A stretch of 35,754 nucleotides of DNA from Candidatus Egerieousia equi (GTDB lineage: Bacteria; Bacteroidota; Bacteroidia; Bacteroidales; UBA932), in contig JAGHUC010000068.1 of the NCBI GenBank assembly GCA_018065035.1, positions 1 through 35,754 of the forward strand, given 5' to 3'. This document shows positions 17,127-35,630 of this stretch, in pieces. Position 1 is the first letter of the stretch, and each line of letters opens with the position of its first letter. A program made the position numbers and the translations under genes. The notes beneath the pieces were generated by a model. The model had not been told where the DNA came from, did not search any database, and worked only from the letters and a program-made list of their open reading frames with translations.

Positions 17127-17136
17127 CTGCCTGATT

Positions 17137-17214
17137 GCGGCAGTCACTTCATCTGAAAAATTCCGCCTTTCCGTGGCGGAATTTTTCATATTCCAGTGAC
17201 CTGCCGTTTTTTTT
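17137..17214 (+). repeat. nested palindromic element, family A (copy 2) ending in T8 run
   Basis: The same outer arms as copy 1. The apical stem is ttCCGCC/GGCGGaa instead of aaGCGCC/GGCGCtt. It begins 11 nt after the SIMPL stop and is followed by TTTTTTTT. Confidence 0.85.
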
Positions 17215-22736: not shown

Positions 22737-22799
22737 TCTTCTACTGCGATAGTACATTCTTCCGCTTGTTGCGGCAGACATACCTTCTTCCGCTTGATT

Positions 22800-22870
22800 G
22801 CGGCAGTCACTTCATCTGAAAAATTCCGCCTTTCCGGGGCGGAATTTTTTAGATTCCAGTGACCTGCCGC
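22800..22870 (+). repeat. nested palindromic element, family A (copy 3) plus upstream partial duplicate at 22757-22785
   Basis: The same arms and apical stem as copy 2. It begins about 60 nt after the M16 stop. Its 5' flank cttccgcttgTTGCGGCAG is duplicated. Confidence 0.85.
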
Positions 22871-23056
22871 TGAATTTGGTCACGTTTTTTTTGTGAAAAT
22901 GTGCCCGTTTCCCATTCCCAAAGTCAGTTTGCTAAAACAGCTTCCCGGATATATTCGTAAATGTAACTCTTCGGGCGAAAGAGTGTGAATAATTGGGAGA
23001 TATTGCGTAACTTTGTATTATAACCATCGCAGTAAAATATTTAATAAAAGATAGAT

Positions 23057-24280
23057 ATGAAATATAATTTTGACCAGATTATCGAGCGCAGAGGAACTGA
23101 TTGCTTGAAGTATGACAGAACGCCAAAAGATGTGATTCCGTTGTGGATAGCGGATATGGACTTTGCTACACCGGATTTCGTAATGGAGGCTATTCAAAAA
23201 CGTTTGAGCTGCCCTGTGCTGGGATATCCTCAGATGCCAAAGGACTATTTCAAGACTATCGCCGGGTGGGTGAGGAAACTGCACGGGTGGAACGTGAAGC
23301 CTGAGTGGATGTGCTTTGTGCCGGGTATCGTTAAGGGTATAGGTCTGGTTGAATGGAGCTTGATTCCAAGAGGAGCTAAGGTTATCATCCAGCCGCCTGT
23401 GTATCATCCTTTCCGTCTGGTTTCACAGAAGAACGAGATGGAACTGCTGTACAATCCTCTGATTCCTGTATATGAGGAGGAGTGCGCCGCCGGTTGTGGA
23501 AAAGGCGCCGGAAAACGTCTGGTTGGCTATGAGATGGATTTCGAGTCATTGGAAAAGTGCATGGAGAACGGAGGAAAACTGCTCATCCTTTCAAATCCTC
23601 ACAATCCTGCAGGTATCTGCTGGAGCAGGGAGACTCTTGAGAGAGTTGCATCACTCAGCGCAAAGCACGGCGTGCTCGTAATTTCCGATGAGATTCATGC
23701 GGAAATGGCTCATAAGGGCTTCAAACATATTCCTTTTGCAAGCGTGAGCGAGGAAGCCGCACAGAACAGCATCACATTCATGTCACCTTCAAAGACTTTC
23801 AACATAGCAGGTGTTGTTTCTTCATACGCAATCGTTCCTAATCCGGAATTGAGAAAACGCTTCTTCACATTTATGGAGGCGAACGAGCTGGACAATCCTT
23901 CCATCTTCTCTGCTGTGGTTACCATGGCGGCTTACAAGCATGGCGCTGACTGGAGAAGGCAGATGCTCAGGTACGTTGAATCCAATATTGCATACGTTGA
24001 CAAATACCTCAGACGCAACATTCCGTGTGTGAAGGCTATGCTGCCGCAGGCATCGTTCCTGATCTGGCTCGATTGCAGCGGACTCGGACTCTGTCAGGAG
24101 AAACTGGTTAATTTCCTTGTAAAGAAAGCACATCTTTTCATGAACGATGGTACAATGTTCGGTCCTGAAGGAGCAGGTTTTGTCCGTCTGAACATTGCCT
24201 GTCCTCGCAGCGTTCTTACCCAGGCCCTTGATCAGCTCAGGGATGCTGTTGCCGCCATGAAGTGTTCGTGCAGAAAATAA
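23057..24280 (+). CDS. PLP-dependent C-S lyase / aminotransferase class I-II (PatB/MalY family, cystathionine beta-lyase-like)
   Basis: 407 aa. SPSKTFNIAG carries the PLP-binding Lys. The N-terminus FDQIIERRGTDCLKYD is typical of MalY/PatB. TAacTTTG box at 23008-23015. Confidence 0.8.
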   Translation: MKYNFDQIIERRGTDCLKYDRTPKDVIPLWIADMDFATPDFVMEAIQKRLSCPVLGYPQMPKDYFKTIAGWVRKLHGWNVKPEWMCFVPGIVKGIGLVEWSLIPRGAKVIIQPPVYHPFRLVSQKNEMELLYNPLIPVYEEECAAGCGKGAGKRLVGYEMDFESLEKCMENGGKLLILSNPHNPAGICWSRETLERVASLSAKHGVLVISDEIHAEMAHKGFKHIPFASVSEEAAQNSITFMSPSKTFNIAGVVSSYAIVPNPELRKRFFTFMEANELDNPSIFSAVVTMAAYKHGADWRRQMLRYVESNIAYVDKYLRRNIPCVKAMLPQASFLIWLDCSGLGLCQEKLVNFLVKKAHLFMNDGTMFGPEGAGFVRLNIACPRSVLTQALDQLRDAVAAMKCSCRK

Positions 24281-24334
24281 TATTTCAGCAGTGCTATGGC
24301 ATTGTTGAATCTGGCAGGAACTTGATTCCTGGTT

Positions 24335-25123
24335 TTGAAGAATAACATGAAGGAAGAAGGAGGATTTGCCGGCTGGCAGGAGCGCAGTGAAATACTGCTC
24401 GGCAGTTCCGGGCTTGAAAGGTTGCGCGGTGCGTTCGTGGCTGTGATAGGCCTTGGCGGTGTTGGTGCATACGCCGCCGAAATGCTCGTGCGTGCGGGTG
24501 TGGGACGTCTGCTTCTGCTCGATTCGGACAGAGTGAGTGTTTCGAACAAGAACAGGCAGTTGCTGGCGCTGGATTCAACTGTTGGTCTCAGGAAATGTGA
24601 TGTCATGGCCGCCCGTGCGCATGATATAAATCCTCAAGTTGAACTGATTCTTGTTGATGACTACATCCTGGGTGAAATCTATGATTCTTCACAGTCTGGC
24701 CAGGATGGTAAAACAGTTGCACAGATTCTGGATCCTTATAAAGCTTCCCTTGATTACGTGGTTGATGCCATAGATACGCTTTCTCCTAAGATTGCTCTCA
24801 TCAAGTACTGCATGGACAACGCACTTCCGCTTGTCAGTTCAATGGGCAGCGGAGCAAAGATGGATGCAACGGCGGTGCGTGTGACCGACATCTCCAAATC
24901 GTATAATTGTCCACTGGCATATATACTCAGGAAGAAATTGCGCAAGCTTGGTGTGTCCAAGGGGTTCAAGGCGGTGTTTTCGGAGGAATTGCCTGACCGT
25001 AACGCAATAGTACAGGCAGAGGAACGCAACAAGAAGTCACAGGTGGGCACGATATCGTATCTTCCGGCGGTGTTCGGCTGCGTTTGCGCCCAGACTTGCA
25101 TCAAGGGCATCCTTGATTATTGA
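24335..25123 (+). CDS. tcdA: tRNA threonylcarbamoyladenosine dehydratase (ThiF/E1-like)
   Basis: 262 aa. Rossmann motif VIGLGGVGAYAAEMLVRAGVGRLLLLDSD and an overall ThiF/MoeB-like organisation typical of TcdA/CsdL. Confidence 0.75.
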   Translation: MKNNMKEEGGFAGWQERSEILLGSSGLERLRGAFVAVIGLGGVGAYAAEMLVRAGVGRLLLLDSDRVSVSNKNRQLLALDSTVGLRKCDVMAARAHDINPQVELILVDDYILGEIYDSSQSGQDGKTVAQILDPYKASLDYVVDAIDTLSPKIALIKYCMDNALPLVSSMGSGAKMDATAVRVTDISKSYNCPLAYILRKKLRKLGVSKGFKAVFSEELPDRNAIVQAEERNKKSQVGTISYLPAVFGCVCAQTCIKGILDY

Positions 25124-25145
25124 TATTTCACACGGTTTCATATTT

Positions 25146-25335
25146 TCGAGCAGGTTTGGCCACCCAACCTGCTCGTTTTGCCGGAAAACTTGGGATTCGA
25201 GCAGGTTTGACCCCTCAACCTGCTCGTTTTGCCTGAAAACTTGGGATTCGAGCAGGTTTGGCCCCTCAACCTGCTCGTTTTGCCTGAAAACTTGGGATTC
25301 GAGCAGGTTTGGCCCCCCAACCTGCTCGTTTTGCC
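25146..25335 (+). repeat. 51-bp tandem repeat, about 3.7 units, each unit a GAGCAGGTTTG...CAACCTGCTCG hairpin followed by TTTTG
   Basis: Unit: cgagcaggtttggcccctcaacctgctcgttttgcctgaaaacttgggatt. The stems are conserved and the loops vary (ccaccc/cccctc/cccccc). There are no unique spacers. It lies between the tcdA stop and the metG promoter. Confidence 0.9.
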
Positions 25336-25387
25336 AAAGCTACCGGAGTAACCCTCAGTTTATTAGGATTTGTGCGAGGTAAGCCTT

Positions 25388-25395
25388 AATTTTGC
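25388..25395 (+). promoter_or_regulatory. candidate -7 box TAatTTTG for metG
   Basis: TAnnTTTG lies 40 nt upstream of the metG ATG and downstream of the hairpin array. Confidence 0.3.
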
Positions 25396-25434: not shown

Positions 25435-27498
25435 ATGGAAAAGAATTACAAAAGACATTTGATTACAGCTGCGCTGCCATACGCAAACGGTGGCGTTCAT
25501 ATAGGACATCTTGCAGGTGTTTACGTACCTGCTGACATTTATGCGCGCTACCTCAGGCTCAAGGGCGAGGATGTGAAGTTCATCTGTGGAAGCGACGAGC
25601 ACGGTGTTCCTATCACCATAAAGGCAAAGAAGCTCGGATGCACTCCACAGGACGTTGTGGACAAGTATCACAAGATTATCAAAGAGTCTTTTGAAGGTCT
25701 CGGAATAAGTTTTGACATATATTCAAGGACATCAAGCGATATTCACAGCAAGACCGCCAGTGATTTCTTCCGCAAGCTTTACGATGATGGCAAGTTCATT
25801 GAGAAAGAGTCCGAACAATTCTTTGACGTTGAGGCCAATACCTTCCTGGCAGACCGTTATATCACAGGTACCTGCCCAAAGTGCGGTGCTGAAGGCGCAT
25901 ACGGTGACCAGTGTGAGAAATGCGGATCGACTCTCAGCCCTGATGAACTTATCAATCCTAAATCCGCAATCAGCGGCAGCGAACCAATCAAGAAGAAAAC
26001 CAAACACTGGTATCTGCCGCTTGACAAGTACGAGCAGTGGTTGCGCGAGTGGATTCTCGATGGTCACAAGGAGTGGAAGACCAACGTTTACGGTCAGTGC
26101 AAGAGCTGGCTGGACGGCGGCCTCCAGCCAAGAGCCGTGAGCCGTGACCTTGAATGGGGCGTTCCTGTTCCTGTTGAGGGAGCTGAAGGCAAGGTTCTTT
26201 ACGTATGGTTCGATGCACCTATAGGTTACATTTCCAACACCATAGAACTTCTCGGCAACGATTGGGAGAAATGGTGGAAGAGCGAGGACACAAAGCTCGT
26301 TCATTTCATTGGCAAGGACAATATTGTGTTCCACTGCATAGTTTTCCCAAGCATGCTCAAGGCTCACGGCGGATACATCCTTCCTGAAAACGTTCCGGCA
26401 AACGAGTTCCTTAACCTCGAGGGCAGAAAGATTTCCACATCCCGCAACTGGGCAATCTGGCTGGACGAATACCTCAAGGATTTCCCTGGTCAGCAGGACG
26501 TTCTGAGATATGTTCTCTGTGCCAACGCACCGGAGACCAAGGACAACGATTTCACCTGGAAGGATTTCCAGACCAGGAACAACAGCGAGCTCGTGGCCAT
26601 ATACGGAAACTTTGTGAACAGGGCCATTGTCCTCACACACAAATATTTCGCCGGCAAGGTTCCGGCAATCACTACTCTGCAGGACATAGATAAGGAAGTG
26701 CTTGCACAGCTTCCTCAGTTCAGAACAGAACTAGAAAAGAGCATCAGCACATACAGATTCCGCGAAGCCCTCAAGACCGCAATGGACATTGCCCGCCTTG
26801 GCAACAAGTACCTCACCGACACAGAACCTTGGAAACTGGCCAAGACAGATATGGAGCGCGTAGCCACCATCCTGAACGTATCGCTTCAGATATGTGCCAA
26901 CCTGGCGATAGCATTCGAGCCTTTCCTGCCATTCTCTTCTGCAAAACTAAGAGCCATGCTCAATATGGAGAAGCTTGAATGGAACAGTTTCGGTTCATCT
27001 GAAATCCTTGCGGCAGGTTCGCAGCTCAACAAGGCGGAACTCATGTTCGCAAAGATTGAGGACGAGGTTATTGATGCGCAGCTGAAGAAACTGGCCGATA
27101 CCGACGCAGCCAACCAGGCCGCAGCGGAGGCGGAGGCAGCTGCCGCACCTGTGAAACCTGCTCCTCAGAAAGAGGAATGCACTTTTGACGAGTTCGGCAA
27201 AATGGATATCCGTACAGCCACAGTTCTTGAAGCTGTCCGTGTTCCTAAGACAGACAAACTTCTCAAACTCACAATAGACACAGGCATTGATACACGTACG
27301 ATAGTTTCAGGTATTGCTGAATATTATTCCCCTGAGGACATGCTCGGCAAGCAGATATGTATTCTTGCCAACCTGCAGCCAAGGAAAATACGTGGTATTG
27401 AGAGCAAGGGCATGATACTCATGGCCAAGAATGAGAAGGGCGAAATGAAATTCGTCACTCCGGAGAAACTCATTGAGAACGGTGCCTGCGTGGGCTAA
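25435..27498 (+). CDS. metG: methionine--tRNA ligase with C-terminal tRNA-binding (EMAP/Myf) domain
   Basis: 687 aa. HIGH motif [12 protein letters not shown], zinc knuckles CPKCGA...CEKCGS, KMSKS-equivalent KISTSRN and a C-terminal OB-fold tRNA-binding domain. Confidence 0.95.
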
Positions 27499-35281: not shown

Positions 35282-35409
35282 TAGCGGTGGCCGGTTGCTA
35301 TTATTCCCTCTGGAACCGTTTGGCGAGTTTGTGTCTTTGGTGTCTTCTGGCGTCCTCTGTTGATTTCTGGTGAGCTGGTGCCTTCCGGCATCCTCTGTTG
35401 CCCTTTGGT

Positions 35410-35630
35410 GAGCGCAAACCCCTGATACTGGTAGGGTTTGCGCTCAGTGGATTTTGCAACTATCTGATAATCAATATTGTTTTTCTGGTAAGTGTGCTCA
35501 AACCCCACCACTTTAAGGGGTTTGCGCTCAGTGGATTTTGTAACCGTCTGATAATCAATAGTGCTTTTCTGGCAAGTGATCTCAAACCCCTCGCACAAAC
35601 GAGGTTTGCGCTCAGTTGGTATCTGAAATA
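35410..35630. repeat. 84-bp tandem repeat (about 2.6 units), each unit with a 10-12 bp hairpin GAGCGCAAACCC...GGGTTTGCGCTC
   Basis: Units begin at 35410, 35494 and 35578 and are about 85% identical. The upstream 35330-35400 region carries additional short direct repeats (tcctctgttg...tggtgagc). ORFs are open on both strands. Confidence 0.8.

What the first reader, a model, noticed from the sequence alone, without database searches (positions are those of the whole stretch)
25146..25335. Tandem array of four terminator-like hairpins (51-bp period) between tcdA and metG; same hairpin duplicated at 12255-12337
Each unit carries a 9-11 bp stem (GAGCAGGTT / AACCTGCTC) followed by GTTTTG, the shape of an intrinsic terminator. 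The unit is repeated about 3.7 times head-to-tail, with loop variants only and conserved stems. The array sits after tcdA and upstream of the metG -7 box at 25388, so it is not a metG leader. Two further copies lie 3' of the small membrane-protein gene. Tandem terminator arrays are unusual. Alternatives are a protein-binding-site array or a family B REP-like repeat that expands by slippage.
Basis: seen in the sequence. Interest (0 to 1): 0.5.

Follow-up and report, generated by a model that had tools for sequence, protein, structure and literature searches.

The report
REP-like hairpin module array
The four "terminator-like" hairpins between tcdA and metG are a head-to-tail cluster of a small dispersed palindromic repeat, of the REP/BIME kind. 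The cluster gains and loses whole 51-bp modules between strains and sits at a strain-specific rearrangement junction, so any terminator activity is probably a side effect.

Summary
TRF finds 3.7 copies of a 51-bp unit at 25145-25335. Six perfect GAGCAGGTT-N9-AACCTGCTC hairpins lie at two loci, against 0.02 expected by chance.

The unit is a module: a 27-29-nt hairpin plus a conserved ~24-nt tail. It recurs at non-orthologous intergenic sites in this Bacteroidales MAG contig and in a related MAG (Ca. Egerieisoma sp.). Module number differs between strains:
- two in the window against one in an orthologous contig upstream of the HAD gene
- four here against one decayed relic upstream of metG in ~96%-identical strains

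In those strains the aminotransferase-tcdA block is inverted. A 318-aa gene lies next to metG, and its fold and motifs match REP-associated tyrosine transposases (RAYT). A paralogue ends the window. Other hairpin families crowd the intergenic DNA of this lineage. A 93%-MetG relative has a 5-copy, 52-bp array of a different hairpin at the same place, between divergent genes.

The best reading is a REP/BIME-like modular repeat. Terminator action on tcdA transcripts is possible (about -18 kcal/mol, then UUUU) but untested and not a property of the whole family. A link between this hairpin family and a particular RAYT is inferred, not shown. Interest is moderate to low.

The parts
25145..25335 (+). 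Head-to-tail array of 3.7 x 51-bp modules (four hairpins, three full linkers)
   Evidence: TRF. Sequence. The first two units are confirmed in the independent assembly L079.
25147..25175 (+). Hairpin 1 (CGAGCAGGTT TGGCCACCC AACCTGCTCG)
25198..25226 (+). Hairpin 2 (loop TGACCCCTC)
25249..25277 (+). Hairpin 3 (loop TGGCCCCTC)
25300..25328 (+). Hairpin 4 (loop TGGCCCCCC). Collinearity with close relatives (L059) resumes inside it, at 25311.
25176..25197 (+). Linker/tail of module 1 (TTTTGCCGGAAAACTTGGGATT). Equivalent linkers lie at 25227-25248 and 25278-25299. The linker is conserved across family loci.
   Evidence: Linker identity is 18/24 to the 12284-12307 linker and 18/24 to the L019 flank, with 1 of 2000 shuffles reaching this value.
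12256..12337 (+). Second locus: two hairpins (12257-12283 and 12308-12334) plus one 24-nt linker, at 51-bp spacing. The orthologous site in L067 has only one hairpin.
   Evidence: (88% identity over 83 bp to the metG array, E 2.5e-21)
24347..25123 (+). tcdA-like ThiF-family gene. Its last two codons and its stop differ from relatives, so the breakpoint lies at its 3' end.
22984..25115 (.). Aminotransferase-tcdA block, inverted relative to three assemblies of ~96%-identical strains. The array sits on its right junction.
   Evidence: The window-type arrangement is confirmed by L079.
25387..25394 (+). TAATTTTG, a Bacteroidetes-type -7 box candidate for metG, inside the stretch conserved with relatives
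   Evidence: Sequence. The promoter consensus is from general knowledge. Not tested.
25435..27498 (+). metG
35630..35754 (-). C-terminal end of a RAYT-like Y1 transposase paralogue (cut by the contig end)
   Evidence: tblastn. The full gene is L059 20117-21037.
35338..35616 (.). Cluster of another hairpin family (GAGCGCAAACCC / GGGTTTGCGCTC) 3' of the RAYT-like gene. It holds one more 84-bp unit than L059.

Best explanation
The array is a head-to-tail cluster of a lineage-restricted, dispersed palindromic module. Each module is a 27-29-nt hairpin plus a ~24-nt conserved tail, 51 bp in all. It is the counterpart, in a Bacteroidales (Ca. Egerieisoma-like) genome, of REP/BIME clusters in proteobacteria. 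What is shown: the module occurs at several non-orthologous intergenic sites and in both orientations; clusters differ between strains by whole modules; and the metG cluster lies exactly on a strain-specific rearrangement junction. What is inferred: modules are added or lost either by slipped-strand or unequal recombination between the identical hairpins, or by strand transfer catalysed by a RAYT-type Y1 (HUH) transposase acting on the hairpin in single-stranded DNA. This lineage encodes at least two such enzymes next to hairpin clusters. As a by-product, in the tcdA-to-metG orientation each module gives an RNA hairpin of about -18 kcal/mol followed by UUUU. Four of these in series could damp read-through from tcdA into metG or stabilise the tcdA 3' end. 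That step is plausible but untested.
For: Dispersal: perfect copies occur at two window loci and at two loci of MAG JAZRWT01 (L019 in reverse orientation, and L026). All lie in non-coding DNA. The 24-nt tail travels with the hairpin: 18/24 identity between loci, reached by 1 of 2000 shuffles, and the dimer alignment is 88% with E 2.5e-21.

Module-number polymorphism: the orthologous site upstream of the HAD gene has one hairpin in L067 and two in the window, an exact 51-bp indel whose linker is not built from the local flanks. Upstream of metG, L059, L060 and L061 (~96% DNA identity) carry only a decayed relic that folds no better than shuffles (z = +0.65).

Junction: window 22984-25115 is inverted relative to L059, and homology resumes at 25311 inside hairpin 4. 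The window-type arrangement is confirmed independently by L079.

Transposase context: in the relatives a 318-aa gene lies between the block and metG. It hits NCBIfam REP-associated tyrosine transposase (E 1.4e-6, below the curated cut-off) and Pfam Y1_Tnp (E 0.022). The best PDB profile hit is 4er8 TnpA-REP (E 0.026). The AF2 model has pLDDT 87.9. Its top Foldseek hit is 4er8, RAYT bound to a REP hairpin (E 1.7e-3, probability 1.0), followed by IS608, ISDra2 and IS200 TnpA structures. His64, His66, Tyr124 and Asn128 are invariant in 30 homologues. This gene block is bracketed by GTGCTCAATACC hairpins in two lineages. A 53%-identical paralogue with its own hairpin cluster ends the window.

Generality: L062 has a 5.1 x 52-bp array of a different hairpin at the same place.

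Literature: tandem BIME copies are well conserved within a locus and variable in number between strains, and TnpA-REP strand transfer can assemble tandem copies (PMC3333891). REP head-tail dimers and clusters reiterated in tandem together with flanking DNA are described (PMC3733652). The Bacteroidetes TnpA-REP subclass 2.6 is flanked by atypical secondary structures (PMC6006769).
Against: No RAYT gene flanked by this particular hairpin family was found; the RAYT-like genes seen carry other hairpin families. The hairpin lacks the GTAG or CGTC tag typical of REPs. Units are in direct orientation, not the alternating REP/iREP arrangement of classical BIMEs. High copy number is not shown: the whole-collection scan found only two perfect copies in the related MAG and none elsewhere, although MAG assemblies break at these repeats (L066, L079). 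The RAYT assignment rests on sub-threshold sequence scores plus a fold match with modest TM (0.58 on the target).
Confidence: 0.65

Rival explanations
1. A dedicated tandem intrinsic-terminator array, selected to stop tcdA transcription before the metG promoter.
For: Each unit has a 10-bp GC-rich stem followed directly by UUUU, at -17 to -19 kcal/mol. The array begins 24 nt after the tcdA stop and is co-oriented with tcdA. It ends upstream of the conserved metG promoter-like region. The L019 copy is co-oriented between acrB-like and argR genes.
Against: The terminator scan does not call the units, because the tail has only 4 T in 8. The tails are GTTTAG or GTTCTA in four of the nine copies. 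~96%-identical strains have tcdA on the other strand, followed by different hairpins that lack U-tails. The equivalent L062 array lies between divergent genes. The same module with its linker is found at unrelated loci.
Confidence: 0.15
2. A purely local hairpin-containing minisatellite (VNTR) that grows and shrinks by replication slippage, with no mobile-element biology.
For: The period is exact with no indels, and units are near-identical. Copy number changes by whole units. Identical 27-nt hairpins are good slippage substrates (inference).
Against: The module, linker included, is present at four or more non-orthologous loci in two genomes and in both orientations. The linker of the two-copy locus is not derivable from its local flanks. 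Several other hairpin families behave in the same way, next to RAYT-like genes.
Confidence: 0.12
3. An array of binding sites for a dimeric DNA-binding protein, either an operator array or a centromere-like site (compare F-plasmid sopC, which has 43-bp tandem units each holding an inverted repeat). The 51-52-bp period, about five helical turns, would place the sites on one face of the helix.
For: The units are palindromes with 9-10-bp arms in a strictly phased array. The same ~51-52-bp period is seen with a different palindrome in L062. Both arrays lie just upstream of a promoter-like region.
Against: No partner gene is evident next to either locus. Single copies and pairs occur at unrelated loci. 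The array is absent in ~96%-identical strains. The loops, which would be the centre of the binding site, are the variable part.
Confidence: 0.04
4. An RNA-gene or coding array: a CRISPR-like array, a type III antitoxin-like repeat RNA, or the 89-aa ORF 25113-25382, which reads through the array as SSRFGPSTCSFCLKTWD repeats.
For: The period is a multiple of 3 and an ORF spans the array. Tandem-repeat RNAs are known in type III toxin-antitoxin systems (PMC12283969, seen in the listing).
Against: The 'spacers' are identical, so this is not a CRISPR array. The downstream gene is metG, not a toxin. There is no Rfam match even at E up to 1. The ORF has no real Pfam hit. The same frame holds TAA at the second locus. 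The loop differences are non-synonymous, and the family occurs in both orientations.
Confidence: 0.03

Closest known systems
REP / BIME-2 clusters of E. coli and other proteobacteria, with their RAYT (TnpA-REP) transposase
   Same: Both are 20-40-nt extragenic palindromes joined by short linkers into tandem clusters. Tandem copies are well conserved within a locus, while copy number at a locus varies between strains (PMC3333891). Both are associated with rearrangements, and a Y1 HUH transposase gene sits next to hairpin clusters in the same genomes.
   Different: Here the units are head-to-tail single hairpins rather than alternating REP/iREP pairs. There is no GTAG tag. The copy number seen so far is small. 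The RAYT-like protein is ~300 aa with an H-S-H motif and a helical C-terminal domain, and it scores below the family cut-offs. No RAYT has been shown to flank this hairpin family.
REP head-tail (HT) dimers and tandemly reiterated REP clusters (Di Nocera et al. 2013, PMC3733652); SMAG-type elements of Stenotrophomonas
   Same: These are direct tandem arrangements of a stem-loop together with a piece of flanking DNA. Several families coexist in one genome.
   Different: Those families carry GTAG or CGTC tags and number hundreds of copies. Neither is shown here.
TnpA-REP subclass 2.6 (Bertels group 5) of Bacteroidetes, flanked by 'atypical secondary structures' (PMC6006769)
   Same: Same phylum. 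The transposase gene is flanked by unusual hairpins that recur elsewhere in the genome.
   Different: The published motifs are NH[LIV]H and YIH[QN]NP with a mean length of 179 aa. The protein here has THSH and Y(I/x)LLNP and is about 300 aa long. Membership of that subclass was not tested phylogenetically.
Intrinsic (Rho-independent) terminators, including tandem terminators
   Same: A GC-rich stem-loop followed by a U run, placed after a gene.
   Different: The U-tract is short (4 U) and not conserved across the family. The element is dispersed together with its linker, and it is dispensable in sister strains.
BrickBuilt minisatellite-MITE of Porphyromonas gingivalis (PMC4596501); pneumococcal BOX elements (from general knowledge)
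   Same: These are intergenic modular elements, BrickBuilt being from a Bacteroidales species, that contain a variable number of tandem sub-units.
   Different: BrickBuilt units are 23 nt without spacers and lie inside a MITE with a leader, a tail and inverted ends. No such ends are seen here.

Membership tests
REP / BIME | Imperfect palindrome of 20-40 nt able to form a stem-loop | tested here: met
   The palindrome is 27-29 nt with a 9-10-bp perfect stem. Units fold at -15 to -22 kcal/mol on either strand.
REP / BIME | Extragenic location | tested here: met
   All nine perfect copies lie between ORFs. No copy with up to 2 substitutions per arm was found in coding DNA across 126 kb of lineage sequence.
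REP / BIME | High copy number, dispersed around the genome (typically more than 100 copies) | tested here: inconclusive
   The module is dispersed: four non-orthologous loci in two genomes. Only two perfect copies were found in the whole related MAG, and only one contig of the source genome is available. Assemblies break at these repeats.
REP / BIME | Conserved unpaired GTAG (or CGTC) tag at one end | tested here: not met
   The flanks are ..TTC|GAGCAGG and CTGCTC|GTTTTG, with no GTAG or CGTC. PMC6006769 describes atypical structures for Bacteroidetes.
REP / BIME | Clustering with linkers into tandem units whose number varies between strains | tested here: met
   Clusters have 51-bp modules. 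Counts are 1 against 2 modules and a relic against 4 modules. However, the orientation is direct, not alternating.
REP / BIME | Cognate RAYT gene flanked by the same REP (REPtron) | tested here: inconclusive
   RAYT-like genes are present in the lineage, and one lies about 200 bp from the relic copy in L059. Their flanking hairpins belong to other families. No further contigs could be fetched.
RAYT (for the 318-aa neighbour in relatives) | Y1 HUH fold with an HUH motif and a catalytic Tyr in a Y..NP helix | tested here: met
   The top Foldseek hit is 4er8, followed by IS608 and ISDra2 TnpA structures. H64, H66, Y124 and N128 are invariant. The sequence scores are sub-threshold: NCBIfam 28 bits against a cut-off of 80, and Pfam 15 bits against 23.
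Intrinsic terminator | GC-rich stem-loop immediately followed by a U-rich tract | tested here: inconclusive
   The stem qualifies. The tail is UUUUGCC, 4 U in 8, which is below the scan's criterion, and no unit is called. The tail is not conserved in four of the nine copies.
Intrinsic terminator | RNA 3' ends generated at the site | not testable with these tools
   No transcriptome data are available.
CRISPR array | Repeats separated by unique spacers, usually with cas genes | tested here: not met
   The 22-24-nt 'spacers' are identical within the array.
Type III toxin-antitoxin repeat RNA | Tandem repeats, then a terminator, then an endoribonuclease toxin gene | tested here: not met
   The downstream gene is metG.
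MITE | Terminal inverted repeats and target-site duplication bounding a 100-400-bp element | tested here: not met
   No inverted ends were found beyond the hairpins themselves, and the array flanks are unrelated to each other.

The most novel reading that the evidence does not exclude
This Bacteroidales clade may have a 'cassette' system of interchangeable hairpin modules. Unrelated palindromes adopt the same ~51-52-bp hairpin-plus-tail architecture, form head-to-tail arrays, and replace one another at the same chromosomal sites (upstream of metG; the borders of the aminotransferase-tcdA block). The driver would be an undescribed ~300-aa family of RAYT-like Y1 transposases, with an H-S-H motif and a helical C-terminal domain, that also rearranges the flanked genes. 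That would be a REP system with a different geometry and enzyme subclass from the proteobacterial paradigm.
Probability: 0.2. Interest if true: 0.6.

Novelty: new variant of a known kind. Interest (0 to 1): 0.35.

Why it matters
REP/BIME biology has been worked out almost entirely in proteobacteria. This is a gut Bacteroidales lineage known only from MAGs. It shows the same hallmarks: dispersed palindromes, strain-variable tandem clusters, rearrangement junctions and neighbouring Y1 transposase genes. It differs in having direct-repeat modules, no GTAG tag and a divergent, longer RAYT-like protein.

There are two practical consequences. These modules break short-read assemblies, as several contigs here end inside them. 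Terminator-like hairpins in such genomes should not be annotated as dedicated terminators without checking for repeat families.

If the modules do attenuate transcription, their strain-to-strain gain and loss would be a cheap way to retune insulation between neighbouring genes such as tcdA and metG.

Tried and rejected
- Rfam at gathering threshold on the whole window, and at E up to 1 on both loci, gave nothing meaningful. The only hits were mir-1296 and H19 at E about 0.4.
- The genome-contig scan for the hairpin returned 58 stretches. All are single occurrences in unrelated taxa, mostly ordinary terminators or coding matches, except two contigs of one Ca. Egerieisoma MAG.
- The metagenome-contig scan returned three unrelated hits. 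The viral-contig scan returned none. blastn against plasmids returned none.
- Exact-protein look-ups of the window's MetG and of the 72-aa ORF found nothing.
- The single-sequence PDB search with the 318-aa protein found nothing. The profile search gave only weak hits.
It was redone with P0121 as the first row.
- Strand choice from folding energies was not informative: both strands fold equally well.
- The ORF through the array was rejected, as was the assembly-chimera idea (L079).
- metG-specific regulation was rejected. Relatives with 82-83% MetG identity have dnaG followed by metG, with no hairpin array.

Full report
**1.

Tandem Repeats Finder reports 25145-25335 as 3.7 copies of a 51-bp unit, with 95% matches and no indels. 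The palindrome GAGCAGGTT-N9-AACCTGCTC occurs six times in the window: four times in the array, and twice at 12257 and 12308, again 51 bp apart. Chance expectation is 0.02, and none of 100 shuffles reached six. Stems are invariant. The four array units differ only at three loop positions and one linker base.

Single units fold at -17 to -22 kcal/mol, with z-scores of -3.3 to -5.9. The opposite strand folds equally well. The whole array folds with z = -4.9 on the + strand and -4.4 on the - strand.

The flanking ORFs are a ThiF-family, TcdA-like protein and MetG. The window is a whole 35,754-bp contig of an NCBI MAG labelled Bacteroidales / Ca. Egerieisoma.

**2. It is a dispersed module, not a local oddity**

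A self-comparison aligns the hairpin-linker-hairpin dimer at 12256-12337 to the metG array at 88% over 83 bp (E 2.5e-21).

A scan of one genome per species (GTDB) returned 58 single hits. Almost all are unrelated terminators or coding matches. The exceptions are two contigs of one MAG, Ca. Egerieisoma sp. JAZRWT01:
- L019 carries one copy in reverse orientation, between an acrB-like gene and argR.
- L026 carries one copy inside more than 2 kb of non-coding DNA.

The ~24 nt that follow the hairpin are conserved between loci. Identity is 18/24 between the metG linker and the 12284 linker, and 18/24 to the L019 flank, reached by 1 of 2000 shuffles. The family unit is therefore hairpin plus tail, 51 bp in total. 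Arrays have the form (hairpin+tail)n + hairpin.

Metagenome, viral and plasmid searches found nothing related, and Rfam has no match. The family is restricted to this lineage.

**3. Module number varies between strains**

An ENA contig (L067) is orthologous to the region upstream of the HAD gene. It shares the end of the small ORF and has near-identical non-coding DNA. It carries one hairpin where the window has two. The difference is exactly one 51-bp module, and the linker of that module is not composed of the local flanks.

Upstream of metG, three assemblies of ~96%-identical strains (L059, L060, L061; MetG 98-99%) carry only a decayed relic, CGAGC-gcaa-CAGG...CCTGCTCG-TTTTGCC. It folds no better than shuffled sequence (z = +0.65).

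**4. The array sits on a rearrangement junction**

Relative to L059, window 22984-25115 (aminotransferase plus tcdA) is inverted. Collinearity resumes at 25311, inside hairpin 4. The breakpoint removes the last two codons of tcdA: LDY* in the window against LAR* in L059.

An independent Logan assembly (L079) reproduces the window-type arrangement on both sides. It ends inside unit 2 of the array, so the junction is not a chimera.

**5. What the relatives have instead: a RAYT-like gene and other hairpins**

In L059, L060 and L061 a 318-aa gene lies between the aminotransferase and metG. The evidence that it is RAYT-like is as follows:
- It hits NCBIfam 'REP-associated tyrosine transposase' (E 1.4e-6, 28 bits, below the cut-off of 80) and Pfam Y1_Tnp (E 0.022).
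- A profile of 30 homologues gives 4er8 (E. coli TnpA-REP) as the best PDB hit, weakly (E 0.026), followed by IS200/IS605 transposases.
- An AlphaFold model (pLDDT 87.9) has 4er8, RAYT bound to a REP hairpin, as its top Foldseek hit (E 1.7e-3, probability 1.0, TM 0.58 on the target). Essentially all IS608, ISDra2 and IS200 TnpA structures follow.
- His64, His66, Tyr124 and Asn128 are invariant, within the motifs STHSH and Y-LLNPV...Y-WSS.

The gene order RAYT-aminotransferase-ThiF is kept in a relative whose RAYT is 73% identical. In both lineages the block is bracketed by GTGCTCAATACC/GGTATTGAGCAC hairpins.

A 53%-identical paralogue lies 10 kb downstream, and its C-terminal end is the last 125 bases of the window. 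It is adjacent to a cluster of GAGCGCAAACCC/GGGTTTGCGCTC hairpins, of which the window has one more 84-bp unit than L059.

The lineage's intergenic DNA holds at least five further hairpin families. These include a 78-bp palindrome that follows the stop codons of three genes in the window and shows compensatory stem changes.

**6. The same architecture with a different hairpin**

In L062 (MetG 93%), the place upstream of metG is occupied by 5.1 head-to-tail copies of a 52-bp unit. Each unit is GGCCACAAAA-N8-TTTTGTGGCC plus a GTTTGG...GATTT tail. The array lies between divergent genes, so it cannot be the terminator of an upstream gene. More distant relatives (MetG 82-83%) have dnaG followed by metG with no array. 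The array is therefore not part of conserved metG regulation.

**7. Interpretation**

The properties found are:
- a 27-29-nt extragenic palindrome
- dispersal together with a short linker
- tandem clusters that are homogeneous within a locus but variable in number between strains
- location at rearrangement junctions
- Y1 transposase genes with hairpin clusters nearby

These are the properties described for REP/BIME-2 clusters and their TnpA-REP (PMC3333891), for REP head-tail dimers and tandemly reiterated clusters (PMC3733652), and for Bacteroidetes TnpA-REP genes flanked by atypical structures (PMC6006769).

The differences are the strictly direct orientation, the absence of a GTAG or CGTC tag, the small number of copies seen, and a divergent ~300-aa enzyme.

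Two steps are inferred rather than shown. The first is that this hairpin family is a substrate of a RAYT-like enzyme; the RAYT-like genes seen carry other hairpin families. The second is the mechanism of module gain and loss, which could be slippage or unequal recombination between identical hairpins, or transposase strand transfer.

**8. Terminator question**

In this orientation each module is a 10-bp stem followed by UUUU, beginning 24 nt after the tcdA stop. Partial termination or 3'-end stabilisation is plausible, and four modules would act cumulatively. Against this being the element's purpose:
- The consensus scan does not call them.
- The tails are not conserved across the family.
- Sister strains lack the array.
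- The L062 analogue is not downstream of any gene.

I therefore treat termination as a possible side effect (roughly 40% that it is measurable), not as what the element is.

**9. Rejected readings**

- CRISPR-like array: the spacers are identical.
- Type III antitoxin RNA: the downstream gene is metG.
- The 89-aa ORF through the array: no family hit, a stop codon in the same frame at the second locus, and both orientations occur.
- MITE: there are no terminal inverted repeats.
- Assembly artefact: ruled out by L079.

**10. Verdict**

This is a real, well-defined feature. It is best classified as a new variant of the REP/BIME kind in an uncultured Bacteroidales lineage. It is of moderate to low interest on its own. 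Interest would be somewhat higher if the modular 51-52-bp architecture and the divergent RAYT-like family prove to be a coherent system.

Noticed in passing
window 16127-16207, 17129-17206, 22789-22870: A 78-bp near-perfect palindrome family sits within about 55 nt after the stop codons of three + strand genes. Its inner stem shows compensatory changes (AAATTCCGCC/GGCGGAATTT against AAATAAGCGCC/GGCGCTTATTT), and T-runs lie on both sides, the shape of a bidirectional terminator.
   Followed up: partly
window 35630-35754 (-) and 35338-35616; L059 19900-21037: The window ends in the C-terminal part of a RAYT-like Y1 transposase paralogue. Its 3' flank is a cluster of GAGCGCAAACCC/GGGTTTGCGCTC hairpins (38-bp and 84-bp tandem units). 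The window has one more 84-bp unit than the ~96%-identical strain.
   Followed up: partly
L059 6320-6450 and 8713-9850; L068 3543-3580; L069 15-55: A 318-aa RAYT-like gene together with the aminotransferase and tcdA genes is bracketed on both sides by GTGCTCAATACC/GGTATTGAGCAC hairpins. This holds in two lineages whose RAYT is 73% identical. It resembles a REPtron with two passenger genes. The window has lost the RAYT and both hairpin pairs.
   Followed up: partly
L062 644-909: A 5.1-copy, 52-bp head-to-tail array of a different hairpin (GGCCACAAAA-N8-TTTTGTGGCC plus a GTTTGG..GATTT tail) lies upstream of metG, between divergent HAD and metG genes, in a relative with 93% MetG identity. Related GGCCACAAA/TTGTGGCC repeats occur in L019 2150-2290.
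   Followed up: partly
window 12160-12770; L026 5300-6440; L019 1780-2600: Non-coding stretches of 0.6 to more than 2 kb are built as mosaics of several hairpin families: GTACAGGA..TCCTGTAC, GGCCGAAAA..TTTTCGGCC, and a CCAGCAAGTTCGCGCCCTCCGCTAGGCCGCTGA motif. A ~330-bp composite (window 12207-12539) recurs at 83% identity in a non-orthologous context in L026.
   Followed up: partly
RAYT-like family P0121-P0194: The family has 74 clusters of ~300-aa homologues, almost all without a precomputed Pfam domain and mostly on 1-3-kb contigs, so assemblies break around them. One is named 'transposase' by NCBI. The C-terminal ~140 residues are an all-helical domain of unknown role.
   Followed up: partly
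window 25113-25382 (+): An 89-aa ORF reads through the array, because the period is a multiple of 3, giving four SSRFG-P-TCSFC-LKTWD repeats with CxxC motifs. It is judged non-coding.
   Followed up: yes
taxonomy: NCBI taxonomy places Ca. Egerieisoma under Clostridiaceae incertae sedis, whereas the proteins of this contig are labelled Bacteroidales and their closest relatives are Bacteroidales MAGs.
   Followed up: no
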